Source: a virus (lineage: Duplodnaviria; Heunggongvirae; Uroviricota; Caudoviricetes). From it: a stretch of DNA of 64,000 bases. The stretch is from IMG/VR virus record IMGVR_UViG_3300036876_000145, positions 19,489-83,488 of that record. The stretch is one strand, 5' to 3'. The position numbers and the translations under genes are program-made. Shown one piece after another: positions 1 through 64,000 of the stretch (the stretch's first letter is position 1; every line of letters starts with the position of its first letter). The notes under the pieces are model-generated. The model was not told the origin of the DNA. It did no database searches and saw nothing but the letters and a program-made list of their open reading frames with translations.

Positions 1-28
1 TTTCTTATCTATTTGCATCCAACTTTAT

Positions 29-874
29 ATGAGCAAATCTAAAGCCGATTCCCTGGGTGATCGGATGAAACGGCATGAAAATGTGTACCGTTTTCTTCTG
101 CCGAAGCGTACTTACACCATTCTTCGCGTTGGCAGAGCTTTCCATACATGGACTAAAGGACTGGCAAAGCCCTACGACAAGCAATTTATGGACTGCATGA
201 ATGCCGCAGCAAGGGCACTTTGTGAGCAAATCAGCGGGGCTCAATTCGCCTACATTCAATCCGATGAAATCAGTTTATTGGCTGTGGATTTTCTCGATAT
301 CAAAACTGAGCCCTGGTTTGATGGTGTGATACAGAAATGGGTGAGCGTGGGGGCTTCCATCGCTACAACGGCATTTAACCTTCAAGTCGGCTACTACCAG
401 AAGCTGGCGCTCCGCGACTCCTTCGGAGAAGGCTGGCTGGTAACGTCTGCCCGTGATACATCTTTGCTTGGCGGTAAAAAACTCATGAACGCTATGTTTG
501 ACGCTAGGGTATTCACGATTCCTGATCTGGTTGAAGTCGAAAATTACTATGTTTGGCGACAACAGGACGCTGAACGAAATAGCGTAACCATGCTGGCACA
601 AGCATACGCCAGTCACAAACAACTTCACGGAAAAAATCGTGCAGCGCAACACGAAATTATTCAAGCCGCAGGCGACAATTGGGCAAAGCACCCAGCTTCT
701 TTTAAGCACGGACGCATAATTCGGAAAATTGACTCAGTAACCATCGGAAATACCAACTGGGTAATTGACGAAAATACGCCGGTGTTTACTCGAAATCGGA
801 ATTATTTGAGAGATTTAATTCCATATGCTTGGGAAAATGATATACTGGTGAGAAAGGCGGCAACGAGTGAGTAA
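29..874 (+). CDS. Thg1-like protein (tRNA-His guanylyltransferase / tRNA 5'-end repair family)
   Basis: 281-aa ORF. AYIQSDEISLLAV resembles the Thg1 catalytic QSDEYSFVF motif. Size fits Thg1-like proteins. tRNA-rich context. Confidence 0.65.
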   Translation: MSKSKADSLGDRMKRHENVYRFLLPKRTYTILRVGRAFHTWTKGLAKPYDKQFMDCMNAAARALCEQISGAQFAYIQSDEISLLAVDFLDIKTEPWFDGVIQKWVSVGASIATTAFNLQVGYYQKLALRDSFGEGWLVTSARDTSLLGGKKLMNAMFDARVFTIPDLVEVENYYVWRQQDAERNSVTMLAQAYASHKQLHGKNRAAQHEIIQAAGDNWAKHPASFKHGRIIRKIDSVTIGNTNWVIDENTPVFTRNRNYLRDLIPYAWENDILVRKAATSE

Positions 875-1190
875 ATCTCTGGGCTATCGAGCCATTACAG
901 TATTCGATTCTCAAGTGCGATTTTGTGTTCGACAGTTGGAGACAGAAATTTACATATTTGATCATGTCATCAAGGTGCCGAATTGGGATATAAAAGGAGT
1001 CAGAGAGCCTTTCTACAGGGAAGAATATGTGTCCGTTCCAGTAGAAGAATACCTTCGCTCCGTCGTGGCACAAGAAGAGCTAGTAGAGTACGGTATCAAA
1101 GCCTCGGATGTTAAAAGATACATTTTGGAAAGACGCAAATATTTTTCTGAATTGATCGAAGATAATTTTGCTAATATTCCCTTGGAGTGA
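867..1190 (+). CDS. hypothetical protein
   Basis: 107-aa ORF packed between + strand neighbours; no recognisable motif. Confidence 0.4.
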   Translation: MSKSLGYRAITVFDSQVRFCVRQLETEIYIFDHVIKVPNWDIKGVREPFYREEYVSVPVEEYLRSVVAQEELVEYGIKASDVKRYILERRKYFSELIEDNFANIPLE

Positions 1191-1193
1191 TTT

Positions 1194-1628
1194 ATGTGTT
1201 TAAGTTCAGTTGAAAAAATATTCGACATCGCTACCAGAAGCTCAAAAAAAGCTTGGAAAATAGTTCGCTTTAATAAACCCATCCCACCAGCACCGAAAGG
1301 GAGTTATGAAACTTGTTGTTACCCTGCTTTTATTACTTCTTCTTGGCAAGTAGCCGAGGGAACGACGATAGAAAGTGTGGGGCAAGACCTCATTAACTTT
1401 TCATATAGTGCAGGATTCCATACCTTTGCCCGCAAAAAAGACGCCCAGAAAGAACTTTCCAAATGGAATGCAGAATATCCATATTATCAACTCATTCCAG
1501 TTGAAATTGATGAAATCCACACACAGGGACTTGATATGGGTATAAAACCTATGTCAGCAATAAAATTCGTCTGTATCCCACAAAGAGGAAATAGCCATGT
1601 GTTTATACACAATCACTCAAACACTTAA
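1194..1628 (+). CDS. MCL-family small protein (paralog 1 of 4)
   Basis: Starts Met-Cys-Leu. Shares AWKIV, GFHT(F/Y) and IPVEIDEI..G.D motifs with the ORFs at 23117 and 23543 and the fragment at 2532. Confidence 0.55.
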   Translation: MCLSSVEKIFDIATRSSKKAWKIVRFNKPIPPAPKGSYETCCYPAFITSSWQVAEGTTIESVGQDLINFSYSAGFHTFARKKDAQKELSKWNAEYPYYQLIPVEIDEIHTQGLDMGIKPMSAIKFVCIPQRGNSHVFIHNHSNT

Positions 1629-1817
1629 TCCCCCAGATCATAAAGTTCGCAAAGCTTGGAAGATCGTTACTGGTCGTAACTCATCCCCATTTTATCATAT
1701 TATACTAACTTCTAAGTGGAGCATCGGATGGTGTGGGGCTCTAAAGAAGCACTCCTCGTCGCCCTCGTAGACGGTGTAAGCTCCAGCTTGCTTCATACTA
1801 ATGAATACTGAAGTTTC

Positions 1818-1894
1818 GGCGCGTGTTGTTTAACGGTTAGCATATCTCCCTCTTAAGGAGCAAGGTGCAGGTTCGAATCCTGCCGCGCCGACCA
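1818..1894 (+). tRNA. tRNA, probable Lys (anticodon CTT), CCA encoded
   Basis: Acceptor cggcgcg/cgcgccg, T-arm gcaggttcgaatcctgc, anticodon loop ctCTTaa. Manual fold; D-arm imperfect. Confidence 0.5.
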
Positions 1895-2092
1895 AAATTT
1901 GAGTTTTGTGGTATTGTAGTGTATGGAACTAAAAATTGGACCGTACACAGCAACGGGGTCACAAGCATGGGTTGAGTTTTGCCGCTTCGTGATCGAGGAT
2001 TTGCAAGACGGGGAAATTTTTCATTGGCCTCCGTATAGCTCGGTTGGATTTGCAGCGAAGTATCCCGAGCACGTCGGTAGACTACAAGCTTT

Positions 2093-2434
2093 ATGAGTAT
2101 AGACGGAAACGGGCATATCAACGTTGACGATCTCGCGGATGCTTTCGCGGCGATATTTCGTCACGACATGGAGCCGCCTGAACTGATGATTTGGGCTGAT
2201 CCACCGGGAAGAGAATCGGGCACTTGGGTGTTCCGCAGGGGTCACGAACCCAGTTGTCTCGGCGATGACGCGGCAAAGCGCGAAGGTCGGAACTTTGACC
2301 CGCTCTACGGCACCGTCGAAATCTACTGCACGTACTGTGGGTCCTTCGTGGACATGCTCTGGCGCTGGCAGACGAGCGACAGCGTGTGGCAGAAGTTCAG
2401 GGATCAAGCAAAGTTCGGGTTAGCTCAAGGTTAG
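2093..2434 (+). CDS. hypothetical protein inside a GC-rich island
   Basis: 113-aa ORF in a ~55% GC segment (about 1900-2500) flanked by tRNA and tRNA-like elements. No homology recognised. Confidence 0.3.
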   Translation: MSIDGNGHINVDDLADAFAAIFRHDMEPPELMIWADPPGRESGTWVFRRGHEPSCLGDDAAKREGRNFDPLYGTVEIYCTYCGSFVDMLWRWQTSDSVWQKFRDQAKFGLAQG

Positions 2435-62460: not shown

Positions 62461-62745
62461 ATGGATGAAGATGATTTTTTAGGGGATCCAGATTTTCCTC
62501 GTAAACTACTGGATAAAAAAATGTACACTAGAATTAATCTCTCCACTGGAGAATTTGAATTGCTGCGCTGGGAGCCTATGATCACAGAAAATGGTGAACT
62601 CATTCCAGAAAGTGTTATGCTGTTTGTAGATGAAAATCCACCCCTTATGATGGAACGAGAGGCAGCGGAGCATTACATCGAAGCTCAAAATTTCATAGCG
62701 ATTGTGAATGTGGGGCAACAGCATAAACACAAAACGGTGCATTAA
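62461..62745 (+). CDS. hypothetical protein
   Basis: 94-aa ORF. Confidence 0.4.
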   Translation: MDEDDFLGDPDFPRKLLDKKMYTRINLSTGEFELLRWEPMITENGELIPESVMLFVDENPPLMMEREAAEHYIEAQNFIAIVNVGQQHKHKTVH

Positions 62746-62748
62746 GAG

Positions 62749-63048
62749 ATGAAAAATATATCCAGAAAGAATCCAAGGAAAACACTGAATTTGATTAACT
62801 GGATACGTAGTTGGAATTGGTACGGTATTTTAGGGGTCTGGAAATGGTGGTGGTGTATGGGTTTGATATCCATTCCTTTTGCTGTATTGAAAATCCTTAT
62901 CGATGAAAAATATTTTGGATATGATAGCAACATTTCCATGATGATATTTATTGTAGCGGTGATTATCGCAAATTTTGCGATTCAAGGCTTGCCTCCCGAT
63001 GGCATAAACGCTCCCTTAGAAAAGAAAGTTGTAAAAAATATAAAATAA
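62749..63048 (+). CDS. small membrane protein
   Basis: 99 aa with two TM helices. Confidence 0.4.
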   Translation: MKNISRKNPRKTLNLINWIRSWNWYGILGVWKWWWCMGLISIPFAVLKILIDEKYFGYDSNISMMIFIVAVIIANFAIQGLPPDGINAPLEKKVVKNIK

Positions 63049-63094
63049 TGGTATTATAGAATAGAAAAAATGATGATGATTAGGAGAAAATGTA

Positions 63095-63697
63095 GTGGAT
63101 TTTTTTACGGCCGACTGGCACCTTGGACATAACAATATTATAAAATATTGCGATCGCCCTTTCAAAAATACAGATGAGATGGATTCAGTGCTCATTAATA
63201 ATGTAAACGAAGTAGCAAAACCTGATGACAGGGTATACAATTTAGGCGATGTGGGGATGTTTAGGGATACTGACAGACTTCGAGCCTATAGACAACGAAT
63301 TGTGTGTAAAAATGTATTTGTAATACTGGGGAACCATGATCAGCGAAACAAGAAAGACATCGCTCGTTATTTCACCGTTCTTCCAGCAGAATATGAGTAC
63401 ACATCAGATGATGGATATAGGATTATTTTAAACCATTATGCAATGCGGGTATGGAGTTCGTCACATCATGGCGTAGTGCATCTCTACGGGCACTCGCACG
63501 GCACATTACCGCCTATTCCAGGCATGGCAGCATACGATGTGGGGGTAGACCCCCGAAATTATCGCCCTGACTCCCTGGATCAAGTGAAAGCTGAAATGAA
63601 GAGACTTTGTCCAGAAGGCAAGACACTGGTAGGAGACCATCATGGACTCGACAAAATACGAGACACAATCAGAAACAAAATATCGACAGCTCTGTAA
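63095..63697 (+). CDS. metallophosphoesterase (calcineurin-like phosphoesterase)
   Basis: Motifs DWHLGH, GDVG, GNHD, GHSHG in the canonical order. Confidence 0.75.
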   Translation: MDFFTADWHLGHNNIIKYCDRPFKNTDEMDSVLINNVNEVAKPDDRVYNLGDVGMFRDTDRLRAYRQRIVCKNVFVILGNHDQRNKKDIARYFTVLPAEYEYTSDDGYRIILNHYAMRVWSSSHHGVVHLYGHSHGTLPPIPGMAAYDVGVDPRNYRPDSLDQVKAEMKRLCPEGKTLVGDHHGLDKIRDTIRNKISTAL

Positions 63698-63737
63698 AGC
63701 TTACCAAAAAGCGGCGTAAAGCCCCTGCCTTCAGGCA

Positions 63738-63814
63738 TGGGATAGATTCGAACCCCCACACCGGTCTAGGGAGCGGATTAACAGTCCGCAGCTCTCACCA
63801 ATGAGCAGCCGTCA
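63738..63814 (-). tRNA. minus-strand tRNA-like remnant with a GTT anticodon loop and type-II-like variable region (incomplete 3' end)
   Basis: Reverse complement gives acceptor-like gtgacgg, D-arm gctcattggtgagagc, anticodon gcgga-ctGTTaa-tccgc, T-loop ggttcgaatc. No matching 3' acceptor strand or CCA. Confidence 0.25.
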
Positions 63815-63954
63815 CCACAAAGAGGGTCGAGTGAGGAGAGCGCTCTCCAAAGCTTTATTTCTCACTCGGCCCGACTACCTAAGCCGTGATCTTGCCGTTG
63901 CTTTTGTTCTTGACAGTATATCGCAGGTTGTGGTATATTTCTTGTATGGCACTC

Positions 63955-64000
63955 GAAGGCTACAAAATAAGCATTGAAGGTCTTGCGAAAACCAAGCTGG
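63955..64000 (+). repeat. 46-bp direct repeat copy 2 (runs to the window edge)
   Basis: Identical to 40296-40341. Preceded by the sigma70-like cTTGACAgtatatcgcaggttgtggTATATT at 63909-63941. Confidence 0.7.

What the first reader, a model, noticed from the sequence alone, without database searches (positions are those of the whole stretch)
1..64000. All credible genes on one strand, extreme tRNA density and GC-mosaic composition point to a large phage or phage-like element
More than 120 closely packed + strand genes and no supported minus-strand CDS. At least about 25 tRNA or tRNA-like genes. Many zinc-ribbon mini-proteins and five nuclease genes (three or four HNH endonucleases plus an endonuclease VII). 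Bacterial-type Shine-Dalgarno sites, sigma70 promoters and intrinsic terminators. GC-rich islands at about 4.4-6.4, 28.3-30.2, 38.5-40.0, 44.5-45.2, 49.8-50.8 and 54.4-56.3 kb carry Ku, the methyltransferase, endonuclease VII, an HNH gene and the TnpB remnant. This suggests modular horizontal acquisition into an AT-richer backbone.
Basis: partly seen in the sequence, partly recalled or inferred. Interest (0 to 1): 0.6.

Follow-up and report, generated by a model that had tools for sequence, protein, structure and literature searches.

The report
Huge Acidobacteria phage, auxiliary gene arm
This 64-kb stretch is one arm of a very large (at least about 267 kb) tailed bacteriophage of peat-soil Acidobacteria, packed with same-strand small genes, 22 tRNA genes and DNA/RNA repair enzymes; it is a new member of a known kind (jumbo or huge phages), not a new kind of element.

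Summary
The observation largely holds. All credible genes are on the + strand: 26 ORFs of at least 200 aa against 0, and about 112-116 protein genes. There are 22 firm tRNA genes (not about 25), Shine-Dalgarno sites, and 13 zinc-ribbon-type proteins. GC-rich patches average 49.9% against 43.2% outside.

Overstated points:
- Only 2 HNH genes, plus endonuclease VII and a TnpB remnant.
- Two of the six GC islands are weak.
- Promoter and terminator consensus counts do not exceed shuffles, though a few sites are convincing.

The phage reading is supported. Identical contigs from many peat metagenomes tile to at least 267 kb. About 20 kb upstream a primase-helicase lies where, in syntenic relatives (244-463 kb), the coding strand switches. 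The opposite arm of those relatives is a tail and baseplate module, with Baseplate_J above Pfam's cut-off. That module is collinear with Tunturi_5, an isolated 309-kb jumbo myovirus of Acidobacteriota. The window shares 7 proteins with Tunturi_5.

Phage IscU (90-93% identical) and the amino-acid permease (48-57%) point to Terriglobia hosts.

Strain comparison places 5 of 7 variable junctions in or next to the GC islands, so modular turnover is partly supported.

No capsid, portal or terminase gene of this exact genome could be reached.

The parts
1..64000 (+). One co-oriented arm of a huge phage genome, holding about 112-116 protein genes and 22 tRNA genes. G exceeds C on the coding strand almost throughout.
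   Evidence: Identical contigs extend the same orientation upstream and downstream.
29..874 (+). Thg1-like protein (tRNA-His guanylyltransferase / 3'-5' polymerase family)
   Evidence: Pfam Thg1 precomputed. 40-41% identical to annotated Thg1 genes of many large phages. 60-66% identical in IMG/VR relatives.
1817..1894 (+). tRNA-Lys(CTT). Sister strains carry a second copy on a 190-bp insertion at about position 2250.
6887..10811 (+). dGTP-triphosphohydrolase-like N-domain protein (6887-7372), conserved 863-aa protein of unknown function (7417-10008), HD_4 hydrolase (10041-10811)
10880..12391 (+). AAA ATPase
   Evidence: Pfam AAA 102 bits; PHROG hits
13226..15322 (+). NAD-dependent DNA ligase (adenylation, OB, Zn, HhH and BRCT domains)
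   Evidence: 45% identical to Tunturi_5; 53% in L014.
17926..22553 (+). Envelope and transport genes: OmpA-domain protein (17926-19857), weak ABC-permease-like protein (19879-20751), ABC ATPase (21687-22553)
24116..24844 (+). SprT-like zinc metalloprotease, preceded by the motif GTGTTNNNNATGTATACTA
25165..25381 (+). Copy 1 of a unit made of a near-consensus sigma70 promoter (TTGACA-17-TATTAT), a structured leader and an intrinsic terminator. It lies directly 5' of tRNA cluster 1.
25394..27218 (+). tRNA cluster 1: Ser(GCT), Ser(GGA), Ser(CGA), Ser(TGA), Leu(TAA). Small ORFs lie between them, including PTH2 peptidyl-tRNA hydrolase (26672-26947).
29694..29972 (+). Fragment of a polynucleotide kinase-phosphatase (only the end of the HAD_PNKP domain)
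30675..33155 (+). Major-vault-protein-like gene (Vault_3 repeat plus MVP shoulder). The start is probably at 30702.
33432..34673 (+). RlaP-type nucleotidyltransferase (33432-34265) and a small HNH endonuclease (34344-34673)
35676..35996 (+). Copy 2 of the promoter, leader and terminator unit, directly 5' of tRNA cluster 2
36008..38439 (+). tRNA cluster 2, 13 genes: Trp, His (with encoded G-1), Arg x4 (CCG, GCG, ACG, TCG), a class II tRNA with anticodon GTT, a class II tRNA with anticodon CTG, Asn, one with a 6-nt anticodon loop, Lys(CTT), Phe
39422..39967 (+). HNH endonuclease between tRNA clusters
   Evidence: Pfam HNH/HNH_5. 36% identical to the Tunturi_5 HNH that also lies among tRNAs.
40066..40866 (+). 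tRNA cluster 3: a tRNA found only by Rfam (40066-40139), Arg(TCT), Lys(TTT) x2
41462..42778 (+). Amino-acid permease (APC family), probably host-derived
   Evidence: Pfam 157 bits. The nearest cellular homologues, 48-57% identical, are nearly all Acidobacteriota.
44543..45232 (+). TnpB C-terminal remnant (TNB zinc-finger and RuvC-III part only), at a strain-variable locus
45225..46028 (+). M24 metallopeptidase (methionine-aminopeptidase family)
49804..50742 (+). Ku-like DNA-end-binding protein, preceded by the GTGTT..ATGTATACTA motif. A strain breakpoint lies at 50835.
54644..55911 (+). GC-richest island: partial C5 cytosine methyltransferase (54644-55459) and endonuclease VII (55456-55911)
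56920..62459 (+). SNF2-family helicase (56920-58908) and downstream genes, in the same order as Tunturi_5 gp94, gp91 and gp89
63095..63697 (+). Metallophosphoesterase
   Evidence: phrog_547, 1.7e-40; weak Pfam Metallophos_2

Best explanation
The window is part of one arm of a huge tailed phage (jumbo myovirus lineage) that most likely infects Acidobacteriota (Terriglobia) in peat and wetland soils.

Shown: about 20 kb upstream of the window lies a primase-helicase gene of about 970 aa. In syntenic relatives this gene marks the point where the coding strand switches. One arm, which includes the window, carries replication, nucleotide-metabolism, repair, tRNA and host-interaction genes. The opposite arm carries the tail and baseplate module.

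Inferred: genes are transcribed away from this point in the direction of replication. That would explain why all genes in the window share one strand and why G exceeds C on it.

The window itself is an auxiliary and host-takeover region. Its parts, and their inferred roles, are:
- tRNA arrays grouped by amino acid, with a full Ser set and five Arg anticodons. They supply codons that are rare in a GC-rich host (TTA, AAA, AGA). They probably also make translation independent of a depleted or cleaved host tRNA pool.
- tRNA-care enzymes: a Thg1-like enzyme, peptidyl-tRNA hydrolase, an RlaP nucleotidyltransferase and a decayed kinase-phosphatase.
- DNA maintenance genes: an NAD ligase, Ku, an SNF2 helicase, endonuclease VII and a methylase.
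- Membrane and transport genes.
- A vault-protein homologue.

Shown: small mobile or selfish genes (HNH, a TnpB remnant, methylase plus endonuclease VII) and strain-specific cassettes lie in patches of higher GC.
For: SIZE AND ABUNDANCE. Contigs 99.5-100% identical to the window come from many independent peat and wetland metagenomes. Single window proteins are indexed in 28-148 blocks of the collection. Contig Ga0395694_0000031 (152,942 bp) extends 117 kb upstream of window position 1. Contig k141_315137 (178,295 bp) extends about 86 kb beyond the window end. Together they span at least 267 kb.

RELATIVES.
- The window is syntenic at 40-80% amino-acid identity with IMGVR_UViG_3300033405_000001, 463 kb.
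- The order primase-helicase, 188-aa gene, 241-aa gene, RNR upstream of the window is shared with a 244-kb contig. A 454-kb contig has the same primase/RNR/strand-switch/tail-module layout.

VIRION GENES. In L026, L027/L028, L035 and L138 the other side of the primase gene is a block on the opposite strand. In the IMG/VR relatives it extends further. It contains:
- a chaperone
- a protein of about 1100 aa with a weak TMP_3 match
- an SLT lysin
- large proteins without family matches
- a protein with six Ig-like domains
- a 1559-aa protein matching Baseplate_J at 50.5 bits (cut-off 21.1) and phrog_6 at 1.9e-17
.
The 463-kb contig holds both the window-like block and a tail-module protein, 67% identical.

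ISOLATED RELATIVE.
- Across the phage collection that tail protein hits only Tunturiibacter phage Tunturi_5, at 54% over 98% of its length.
- The whole arm is collinear with Tunturi_5 gp260 to gp240 at 27-54% identity.
- Tunturi_5 has the same strand switch beside its replication genes and RNR.
- Tunturi_5 is a 309-kb myovirus with a contractile tail seen by electron microscopy and 43 tRNA genes (PMC11924767).
- Seven window proteins have Tunturi_5 homologues, including SNF2 at 52%. Window 56.9-62.5 kb keeps the order of gp94, gp91 and gp89.
- Tunturi_5 tRNAs likewise form arrays on one strand grouped by amino acid, with HNH genes among them.

HOST.
- Phage IscU is 90-93% identical to IscU of Terriglobales, Ca. 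Sulfotelmatobacter and other Acidobacteria.
- The nearest cellular homologues of the permease are almost all Acidobacteriota MAGs.
- Bacterial features are present: Shine-Dalgarno sites, tRNA-His with an encoded G-1:C73, LigA, and OmpA and SLT domains.

tRNA ROLE. TTA (7.7-fold), AAA (4-fold) and AGA (3.4-fold) are enriched in the phage relative to an Acidobacteriota proxy, and each has a phage tRNA.

NOT CELLULAR OR PLASMID. There is no rRNA and no housekeeping operon. Two signature proteins find nothing in 72,556 plasmids. The tail protein finds nothing in 185,579 species genomes.
Against: - No major capsid protein, portal or large terminase gene was seen on DNA of this exact species. Only about 91 kb of it could be read (the window, 20 kb upstream and 7 kb downstream).
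- The tail module was seen only in relatives with 52-58% GC, not in the 44% GC species of the window.
- Only 7 of about 116 window proteins have Tunturi_5 homologues, so the relationship is distant.
- The 463-kb contig places the Thg1 block and the tail gene 245 kb apart. This differs from the other relatives, so gene order is not fully conserved, or that contig is rearranged.
- Codon compensation does not explain the tRNA set as a whole. Codons with a phage tRNA are not enriched in the phage overall (Mann-Whitney p = 0.84).
- That the strand switch is a replication origin is inferred, not shown.
Confidence: 0.88

Rival explanations
1. It is a non-viral giant extrachromosomal element (a megaplasmid or another large element). 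It would carry tRNAs and repair genes and perhaps a contractile-injection or tailocin module, but no capsid.
For: No capsid, portal or terminase gene was found in the 91 kb of this species that could be read. Baseplate_J, tape-measure and SLT domains also occur in tailocins, extracellular contractile injection systems and secretion systems (established knowledge). Most genes have no family match.
Against: - The tail arm of the relatives is collinear over 13 or more genes with Tunturi_5, an isolated plaque-forming myovirus that has terminase, portal, head protease, sheath and head genes (PMC11924767).
- Relatives are filed as viral genomes in IMG/VR.
- Signature proteins find nothing in 72,556 plasmids.
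- No relaxase, type IV secretion, partition or plasmid replication domain appears in any annotated flank.
Confidence: 0.05
2. It is a chromosomal island or prophage region of a bacterium, not a free huge phage.
For: Some genes are very close to host genes: IscU is 90-93% identical and the permease 48-57%. TnpB elements and methylases are also common in genomic islands.
Against: - Contigs of 153-178 kb of this species, and of 244-463 kb in relatives, show no cellular core genes where they were read.
- No integrase or attachment site was seen.
- The window has 44% GC, against about 61% in ORFs of Acidobacteriota loci.
- The clade's tail protein is absent from 185,579 species-representative genomes.
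- One-strand packing of about 116 mostly tiny genes of unknown function plus 22 tRNAs is unlike a chromosome.
Confidence: 0.03
3. It is a Borg-like archaeal extrachromosomal element. Borgs also have one coding strand per arm, occur in wetland soil and encode vault-like proteins.
For: It comes from wetland or peat samples, all genes share one strand, and it has an MVP-like gene. Borg papers report vault-like proteins (bioRxiv 10.1101/2024.11.05.622173).
Against: - Bacterial signals are present: Shine-Dalgarno sites, NAD-dependent LigA, OmpA and SLT peptidoglycan domains, a sigma70-family factor upstream and a bacterial-type tRNA-His.
- Host-like genes point to Acidobacteriota.
- Only six short two- to three-copy tandem repeats occur in 64 kb, unlike the pervasive repeats of Borgs.
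- The clade is related to a phage isolated on a bacterium.
Confidence: 0.01
4. On the GC sub-claim only: the GC-rich patches are not recent imports. They would reflect gene-specific composition (amino-acid content, structured RNA genes, ancestral GC). The clade is ancestrally GC-rich at 52-58% and this species has drifted towards AT.
For: - Relatives have 52-58% GC and the window 44%, so GC-rich genes could be slowly ameliorating ancestral genes.
- IscU, which is clearly host-derived, has only 44% GC, so import does not imply high GC.
- Two of the six islands are weak.
- The strongest island (54.4-56.3 kb) is identical in all strains seen.
- tRNA clusters raise local GC.
Against: - Five of seven strain-variable junctions lie in or within 35 bp of islands that cover about 14% of the window.
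- The island genes are typical mobile or accessory genes: a TnpB remnant, methylase with endonuclease VII, HNH and Ku.
- Genes of island 4.4-6.4 kb (4614-6369) have no counterpart in the syntenic regions of L014 and L015.
- GC at third codon positions in island genes is 52-66%, against 26-36% in the AT-richest genes.
Confidence: 0.3

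Closest known systems
Tunturiibacter phage Tunturi_5 (PP885688.1), an isolated 309-kb jumbo myovirus of Acidobacteriota (PMC11924767)
   Same: - Host phylum, as inferred for the window.
- Genome above 200 kb.
- tRNA arrays on one strand, grouped by amino acid, with HNH genes between them.
- A strand switch between the tail module and the replication and RNR genes.
- A tail and baseplate arm collinear with the window's relatives at 27-54% identity.
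- Seven window proteins shared. Window 56.9-62.5 kb keeps the gene order of gp94 to gp89.
   Different: - Only about 6% of window proteins have a homologue there.
- GC is 58% against 44%.
- Tunturi_5 has no hit to the MVP-like gene, Thg1, Ku, the permease or endonuclease VII.
- The NAD ligase is split into two genes in Tunturi_5.
- Relatives of the window reach 454-463 kb, about 50% larger.
Uncultivated huge phages in IMG/VR and JGI: IMGVR_UViG_3300033405_000001 (463 kb), IMGVR_UViG_3300043788_000040 (170 kb), JGI Ga0604933_0000011 (454 kb), Logan SRR29078145_33038 (244 kb)
   Same: The block from Thg1 to the ligase is syntenic at 40-80% identity. They share the arrangement of primase-helicase, RNR and strand switch with the tail module on the other side.
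   Different: These relatives have 52-58% GC. The genes of island 4.4-6.4 kb are missing from the regions compared. In the 463-kb contig the distance between the two blocks differs.
Huge phages of Al-Shayeb et al. 2020 (LR756500, 462 kb; LR756501 and LR756503, 735 kb)
   Same: - Same category: phages above 200 kb with many tRNAs and tRNA-repair and translation genes. That study reports up to 67 tRNAs, with numbers rising with genome size (PMC7162821).
- They are the only records in the phage collection with a homologue of the MVP-like gene, 42% identical over 97-98% of its length.
   Different: Only about 5 weak protein matches occur in 100 kb of LR756500. Its GC is 24%. None of the tail-arm proteins match. 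It is not the same lineage.
tRNA regions of T4- and T5-like phages
   Same: tRNA genes are clustered in a non-structural region, interspersed with small ORFs and homing endonucleases, and accompanied by tRNA-repair enzymes (established knowledge of T4 Pnkp/Rnl and the T5 tRNA region).
   Different: - There are many more tRNAs, in whole isoacceptor families.
- The kinase-phosphatase is only a fragment.
- No RNA ligase lies in the window.
- Thg1-like and PTH2 enzymes are present instead.

Membership tests
Jumbo or huge tailed phage (Caudoviricetes, genome above 200 kb) | Genome longer than 200 kb | tested here: met
   Two contigs 99.5-100% identical to the window overlap it and together span at least 267 kb. 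Syntenic relatives are 244, 454 and 463 kb.
Jumbo or huge tailed phage (Caudoviricetes, genome above 200 kb) | Large terminase, portal and HK97-type major capsid genes on the same genome | tested here: inconclusive
   None was found in the 91 kb of this species or in about 75 kb of tail arm read in relatives. The rest of the contigs could not be fetched. Tunturi_5, which shares the tail arm, has all three. A 334-aa ORF in L052 is 33% identical to part of Tunturi_5 gp224, annotated as portal.
Jumbo or huge tailed phage (Caudoviricetes, genome above 200 kb) | Tail morphogenesis module (tape measure, baseplate, fibres) | tested here: met
   Met in syntenic relatives, not in this exact species. 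Baseplate_J scores 50.5 bits against a cut-off of 21.1, and phrog_6 gives 1.9e-17. There is a weak TMP_3 match, an SLT lytic tail protein, and collinearity with Tunturi_5 gp260-gp240.
Jumbo or huge tailed phage (Caudoviricetes, genome above 200 kb) | No ribosomal RNA or cellular core operons | tested here: met
   Rfam finds only tRNAs. Precomputed Pfam labels of every gene in the window and its flanks show none.
Tunturi_5-like jumbo myoviruses of Acidobacteriota | Shared, collinear core genes with Tunturi_5 | tested here: inconclusive
   Seven window proteins are 31-52% identical and one block is collinear. The strong collinearity of 13 or more tail genes is shown only for relatives. The relationship is distant, and membership at family level needs whole-genome comparison.
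Tunturi_5-like jumbo myoviruses of Acidobacteriota | Acidobacteriota host | tested here: inconclusive
   The evidence is indirect but consistent. IscU is 90-93% identical to Terriglobales and Sulfotelmatobacter proteins. Nearly all of the 80 best permease matches are Acidobacteriota. The samples are peat and permafrost. No CRISPR or culture evidence is available.
Huge-phage lineage of LR756500 to LR756503 (Al-Shayeb 2020) | Broad protein sharing and synteny | tested here: not met
   Only the MVP-like gene (42%) and four weak hits occur in 100 kb of LR756500. There are no tail-arm matches. GC is 24% against 44%.
Borg extrachromosomal elements | Archaeal (Methanoperedens) affinity and pervasive tandem repeats | tested here: not met
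   Host-like genes are acidobacterial. Bacterial translation and tRNA features are present. Only six short tandem repeats occur in 64 kb.
IS200/IS605-type TnpB element (for 44543-45232) | Full-length TnpB with the N-terminal OrfB_IS605 part and a complete RuvC domain | tested here: not met
Only the TNB zinc-finger domain matches (86.9 bits). The protein aligns to residues 215-333 of the 347-349-aa TnpBs found upstream, at 26% identity. A 32-nt stretch after its stop is shared with the 3' flanks of the full copies.
Major vault protein (for 30675-33155) | Vault repeat domains, shoulder domain and cap helix in one chain of about 850 aa | tested here: inconclusive
   Vault_3 (34.8 bits) and MVP_shoulder (91.9 bits) pass Pfam's cut-offs. 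Residues 461-714 align in register with residues 465-728 of solved MVPs, E = 8e-17, and the lengths are similar. The N-terminal repeats, the cap helix and any assembly were not tested.

The most novel reading that the evidence does not exclude
Two well-formed tRNAs in cluster 2 have a long variable arm (class II), a G73 discriminator and an encoded CCA end, like the four tRNA-Ser genes of the window. Yet they carry Asn (GUU, 37368-37454) and Gln (CUG, 37563-37651) anticodons. Seryl-tRNA synthetase does not read the anticodon. If it charges these tRNAs, the phage would insert Ser at AAY and CAG codons. That would be a phage-encoded mistranslation or recoding device, perhaps aimed at host proteins or at a defence system.
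Probability: 0.08. Interest if true: 0.8.

Novelty: new member of a known kind. Interest (0 to 1): 0.4.

Why it matters
Huge phages with large tRNA sets have been known since 2020, and one jumbo phage of Acidobacteriota has been isolated. The category is therefore not new.

The value here is that the window documents an abundant, apparently much larger (relatives 454-463 kb) and unusually AT-shifted relative. It lives in peat and permafrost soils, where Acidobacteriota are key carbon cyclers.

It offers a clear architecture: in relatives, two arms diverge at a primase-helicase. It also has a host-derived Fe-S scaffold and an amino-acid permease, a vault-protein homologue, and strain-level turnover of tRNA genes and cassettes. 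These give concrete handles for studying how very large soil phages take over translation and diversify.

Tried and rejected
- A megablast of 13 kb against 50,697 phage records found nothing. No close relative is deposited.
- An exact-match search for the window in IMG/VR found nothing.
- Loci returned by the DNA search are only about 6 kb long, so walking was done with the search for related loci instead.
- The single metagenome scan returned only a 2.6-kb contig. The 153-kb JGI contig could not be read beyond 20 kb upstream.
Two hops through the search for homologous proteins reached the primase. The exact 188-aa protein was not returned, so a 58% relative was followed instead.
- The first and last 50 kb of LR756500 share almost nothing with the window, so it was rejected as a close relative.
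- PHROG and Pfam gave no hit for most large tail-arm proteins.
- A 521-aa ORF used as a query proved to be the antisense of a 1296-aa gene.
- The 244-aa minus-strand call at the start of L025 lies in a repeat-rich non-coding stretch and is probably spurious.
- P0139 and P0142 were checked as possible tape-measure genes of the window species. Both were rejected because their contigs have 56% GC and do not match L023.
- Codon compensation as the sole reason for the tRNA set is rejected. There is no overall enrichment (p = 0.84).
- Hypervariability of the 54.4-56.3 kb island was suspected from differing gene calls and rejected. The DNA is identical, and the calls differ because two long ORFs overlap.
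- The leader element has no match in phage records. Rfam gives only a chance-level Trp_leader hit.
- The class II Asn and Gln tRNAs are not present in Tunturi_5.
- Structure prediction was not used, because homologues outside the window could not be supplied as an alignment.

Full report
CHECK OF THE OBSERVATION

The strand monopoly is real. There are 26 ORFs of at least 200 aa on the + strand and none on the - strand. The 24 minus-strand ORFs of at least 100 aa have codon scores near or below zero. A self-trained caller chose 116 + genes and 4 tiny - ORFs. Three of those four lie on tRNA genes. Gene calls stored for identical contigs give the same picture. They extend it about 20 kb upstream and 7 kb downstream. 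GC skew is positive in almost every 1-kb window.

ARAGORN finds 21 tRNA genes. Rfam confirms 18 of them and adds one at 40066-40139. One further weak tRNA-like stretch lies at 27229-27322. That makes 22 firm tRNA genes, all on +, in clusters at 25.4-27.2, 36.0-38.4 and 40.1-40.9 kb, plus one at 1.8 kb.

Other points checked:
- Thirteen proteins carry a zinc-ribbon-type cysteine pattern, against 0.4 expected.
- Shine-Dalgarno motifs precede 48% of first start codons, against 16% of all ATGs.
- Only two HNH genes are supported, plus endonuclease VII and a TnpB remnant.
- Consensus promoter and terminator counts do not exceed shuffles. However, high-scoring promoter-like sites favour the + strand and intergenic DNA. 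Strict terminators number 5 on + and 2 on -.
- GC heterogeneity is real but moderate. The six named islands average 49.9% against 43.2% elsewhere. Four are clear and two are weak.

WHAT THE GENES ARE

Family searches and precomputed labels give the following.
- tRNA care: a Thg1-like enzyme, PTH2, an RlaP nucleotidyltransferase and a fragment of a kinase-phosphatase.
- Nucleotide metabolism: a dGTPase-like domain and an HD_4 hydrolase.
- DNA maintenance: an NAD-dependent DNA ligase, Ku, a partial C5 methylase, endonuclease VII, an SNF2 helicase and a SprT-like protease.
- Envelope and transport: an OmpA-domain protein, an ABC ATPase and an amino-acid permease.
- Other: an AAA ATPase, a ferredoxin, two HNH genes, a TnpB remnant, an M24 peptidase, a metallophosphoesterase and a major-vault-protein homologue.

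Most of the remaining genes are small and have no family. No rRNA, ribosomal-protein or other core operon is present.

WHERE IT COMES FROM

Contigs 99.5-100% identical to the window occur in many independent peat, bog and permafrost-thaw metagenomes. One contig of 152,942 bp reaches 117 kb upstream of window position 1. Another, of 178,295 bp, reaches about 86 kb beyond the window end. The genome is therefore at least about 267 kb.

The 20 kb upstream is still on the + strand. It encodes a primase-helicase of about 970 aa, RNR, Fic, a sigma factor, IscA, IscU, two methylases, NUDIX, ThyX, dCMP deaminase, a full TnpB and MazG.

RELATIVES AND ARCHITECTURE

A 463-kb IMG/VR viral contig is syntenic with the window from Thg1 to the ligase, at 40-80% identity.

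In relatives of 244 kb and 454 kb, and in several IMG/VR contigs, the primase-helicase lies next to a switch of coding strand. On the other side, transcribed the other way, lies a run of large genes:
- a chaperone
- a protein of about 1100 aa with a weak tape-measure match
- an SLT lysin
- proteins of about 375, 900, 790, 1060 and 1300 aa
- a 1651-aa protein with six Ig-like domains
- a 1559-aa protein that passes Pfam's Baseplate_J cut-off

Homing endonucleases are scattered among them. The 463-kb contig carries the 790-aa protein as well. So one viral contig holds both the window-like block and the tail module.

THE LINK TO AN ISOLATED PHAGE

In the phage collection the 790-aa protein matches only Tunturiibacter phage Tunturi_5, at 54% over 98% of its length. 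The whole Tunturi_5 genome was fetched.

Its tail arm, gp260 to gp240, is collinear with the relatives' arm at 27-54% identity. It has the same strand switch next to a replication initiator, a DnaC-like loader and RNR.

Tunturi_5 is a 309-kb myovirus. Its contractile tail was seen by electron microscopy. It has 43 tRNA genes and was isolated on an acidobacterium (PMC11924767).

Seven window proteins have Tunturi_5 homologues. Window 56.9-62.5 kb keeps the order of gp94, gp91 and gp89. Tunturi_5 tRNAs form same-strand arrays grouped by amino acid, with HNH genes between them, as in the window.

HOST

The phage IscU is 90-93% identical to IscU of Terriglobales, Ca. Sulfotelmatobacter and other Acidobacteria. 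The permease's nearest cellular homologues, 48-57% identical, are almost all Acidobacteriota MAGs. Together with the Tunturi_5 link and the sample types, this points to Terriglobia as hosts.

HOW IT MOST LIKELY WORKS

Shown: the window lies on one arm of a genome whose relatives have two arms diverging next to the primase-helicase.

Inferred: that point is a replication origin, and genes are oriented with replication. This would explain the strand monopoly and the steady GC skew.

The window is an auxiliary region. Three codons are strongly enriched in the 44% GC phage relative to a 61% GC acidobacterial proxy: TTA 7.7-fold, AAA 4-fold and AGA 3.4-fold. All three have phage tRNAs. The set as a whole is not biased towards phage-preferred codons (p = 0.84), because whole isoacceptor families are carried. 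I therefore infer that the arrays also serve to make translation independent of a depleted or cleaved host tRNA pool. The adjacent tRNA-care enzymes are consistent with that. This step is not tested.

GC MOSAIC

Comparison with near-identical strains shows seven variable junctions:
1. about 2250: a 190-bp indel carrying a second tRNA-Lys
2. 5882-6367: deleted in one strain
3. 28745: a 137-bp insertion
4. 37347-37402
5. 44571-45279
6. 50835: just after Ku
7. 55646-55700

Five of these lie in or within 35 bp of the islands, which cover about 14% of the window.

At 44.5-45.3 kb the population has three versions. One has an ADP-ribosylglycohydrolase gene. The window has a TnpB remnant joined directly to the M24 gene. 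The third has the same remnant followed by a glycosyltransferase cassette.

This supports modular turnover at the islands. Against a simple import story, the strongest island is invariant among the strains seen. The clearly host-derived IscU has only 44% GC. The relatives have 52-58% GC, so some GC-rich genes may be ancestral.

RIVALS

A megaplasmid or capsid-less element, a chromosomal island and a Borg-like archaeal element were considered.
- Signature proteins find nothing in 72,556 plasmids.
- The tail protein finds nothing in 185,579 species genomes.
- Tandem repeats are few.
- Bacterial features are present: Shine-Dalgarno sites, LigA, OmpA and SLT domains, and tRNA-His with an encoded G-1.

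The main gap is that capsid, portal and terminase genes of this exact species were not reached.

VERDICT

This is a correct and mostly accurate first-stage call. The element is a new member of a known kind, a huge tailed phage, distantly related to the only isolated jumbo phage of Acidobacteriota. Interest is moderate. The side observations are recorded separately. They are the vault-protein homologue, the class II tRNAs with Asn and Gln anticodons, and the duplicated promoter, leader and terminator units in front of the tRNA arrays.

Noticed in passing
window 25165-25381 and 35676-35996: Two copies, 97% identical over about 150 nt, of a unit made of four parts: a near-consensus sigma70 promoter (TTGACA-17-TATTAT), a conserved structured leader of about 120 nt, a variable part, and a terminator hairpin with a T-run. 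Each copy ends 12 nt before the first tRNA of a large tRNA cluster. Fold z-scores are -2.85 and -4.69. It could be a small RNA gene or an attenuator gating the tRNA arrays. There is no Rfam family above threshold and no match in phage records.
   Followed up: partly
window 37368-37454 and 37563-37651: Two class II tRNAs (long variable arm, G73, encoded CCA) resemble the window's tRNA-Ser genes but carry Asn (GUU) and Gln (CUG) anticodons. Rfam's alignment confirms both anticodons. A normal tRNA-Asn lies next to them. One sister strain (L008) deletes the 5' part of the first. Tunturi_5 has no such tRNAs.
   Followed up: partly
window 37952-38022: A tRNA-like gene (Rfam 44.5 bits) with a 6-nt anticodon loop (ATTAAC) and three non-standard pairs at the top of the acceptor stem. 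ARAGORN labels it 'Stop|Leu'. It is probably a decaying tRNA. A suppressor role is not excluded. Coding density in the window with the standard code is normal.
   Followed up: partly
window 30675-33155: A homologue of the eukaryotic major vault protein, with a Vault_3 repeat and the shoulder domain. It aligns in register with solved MVPs. In the phage collection only the 462-kb and 735-kb huge phages LR756500, LR756501 and LR756503 have it (42% identity). A 2023 preprint reported phage MVPs only from two gut phages. Borg papers also report vault-like proteins.
   Followed up: partly
window 24094, 49804, 51494, 51914: The motif GTGTTNNNNATGTATACTA occurs four times, always on + and just upstream of a gene start (the SprT-like gene, Ku and two small genes). 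Only 0.13 occurrences are expected by chance. It is a candidate phage-specific promoter. The copies at 49.8 and 51.9 kb also share the first codons of the downstream genes.
   Followed up: partly
window about 2250; L002 4642-4833: Sister strains carry a 190-bp insertion with a second tRNA-Lys(CTT), so the tRNA complement varies between near-identical genomes. The GC-rich 113-aa ORF at 2093-2434 is not called in the identical JGI contig and is probably not a gene.
   Followed up: yes
window 44478-45284; L008 13109-14383; L139: The locus at the TnpB remnant has three alternative right-hand neighbours in the population. A 32-nt stretch just after the remnant's stop (45253-45283) also follows the two full-length TnpB genes upstream of the window, although the proteins are only 26% identical. 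It may be a conserved element end.
   Followed up: partly
L020 219-599 / L023 10001-10381 (about 10 kb upstream of the window): The phage-encoded IscU Fe-S scaffold is 90-93% identical to IscU of Terriglobales and Ca. Sulfotelmatobacter, yet has only 44% GC (41% at third positions). An IscA-like gene lies next to it. It looks like a host-derived auxiliary gene whose composition has already shifted.
   Followed up: partly
L025 1-610 (about 20 kb upstream of the window, variant strain): In one strain the primase-helicase region is replaced by non-coding DNA full of short direct repeats, for example ATGTCCGGAGGCACCGT about four times and GGAGTCCAAGAGGTATCCAT twice. It resembles iterons and sits at the position of the strand switch. 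It could be an origin or a genome end.
   Followed up: no
window 54644-55472: Two long ORFs (271 and 247 aa) overlap almost fully in different frames in the GC-richest island. Different pipelines call different ones. Only the 271-aa frame matches C5 DNA methylase, and only profile positions 58-180 of 324, so the methylase may be truncated or decayed.
   Followed up: partly
window 40305-40350 and 63955-64000 (continues in L011 13707-13919): A 46-nt exact repeat extends to about 235 nt at 87% identity beyond the window end. The copy at the window end follows a promoter-like TTGACA-18-TATATT. It is probably the start of paralogous small genes.
   Followed up: no
window versus L014, L015, L026, L027-L036, L035, L138: The window species has 44% GC, whereas every more distant relative sampled, and Tunturi_5, has 52-58%. 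This lineage appears to have shifted strongly towards AT relative to its clade and to its presumed 58-61% GC hosts.
   Followed up: partly
window 10530-10634: A 42-nt segment is repeated at 95% identity with 63-nt spacing, in frame, inside the HD_4 hydrolase gene. It is a small internal duplication.
   Followed up: no
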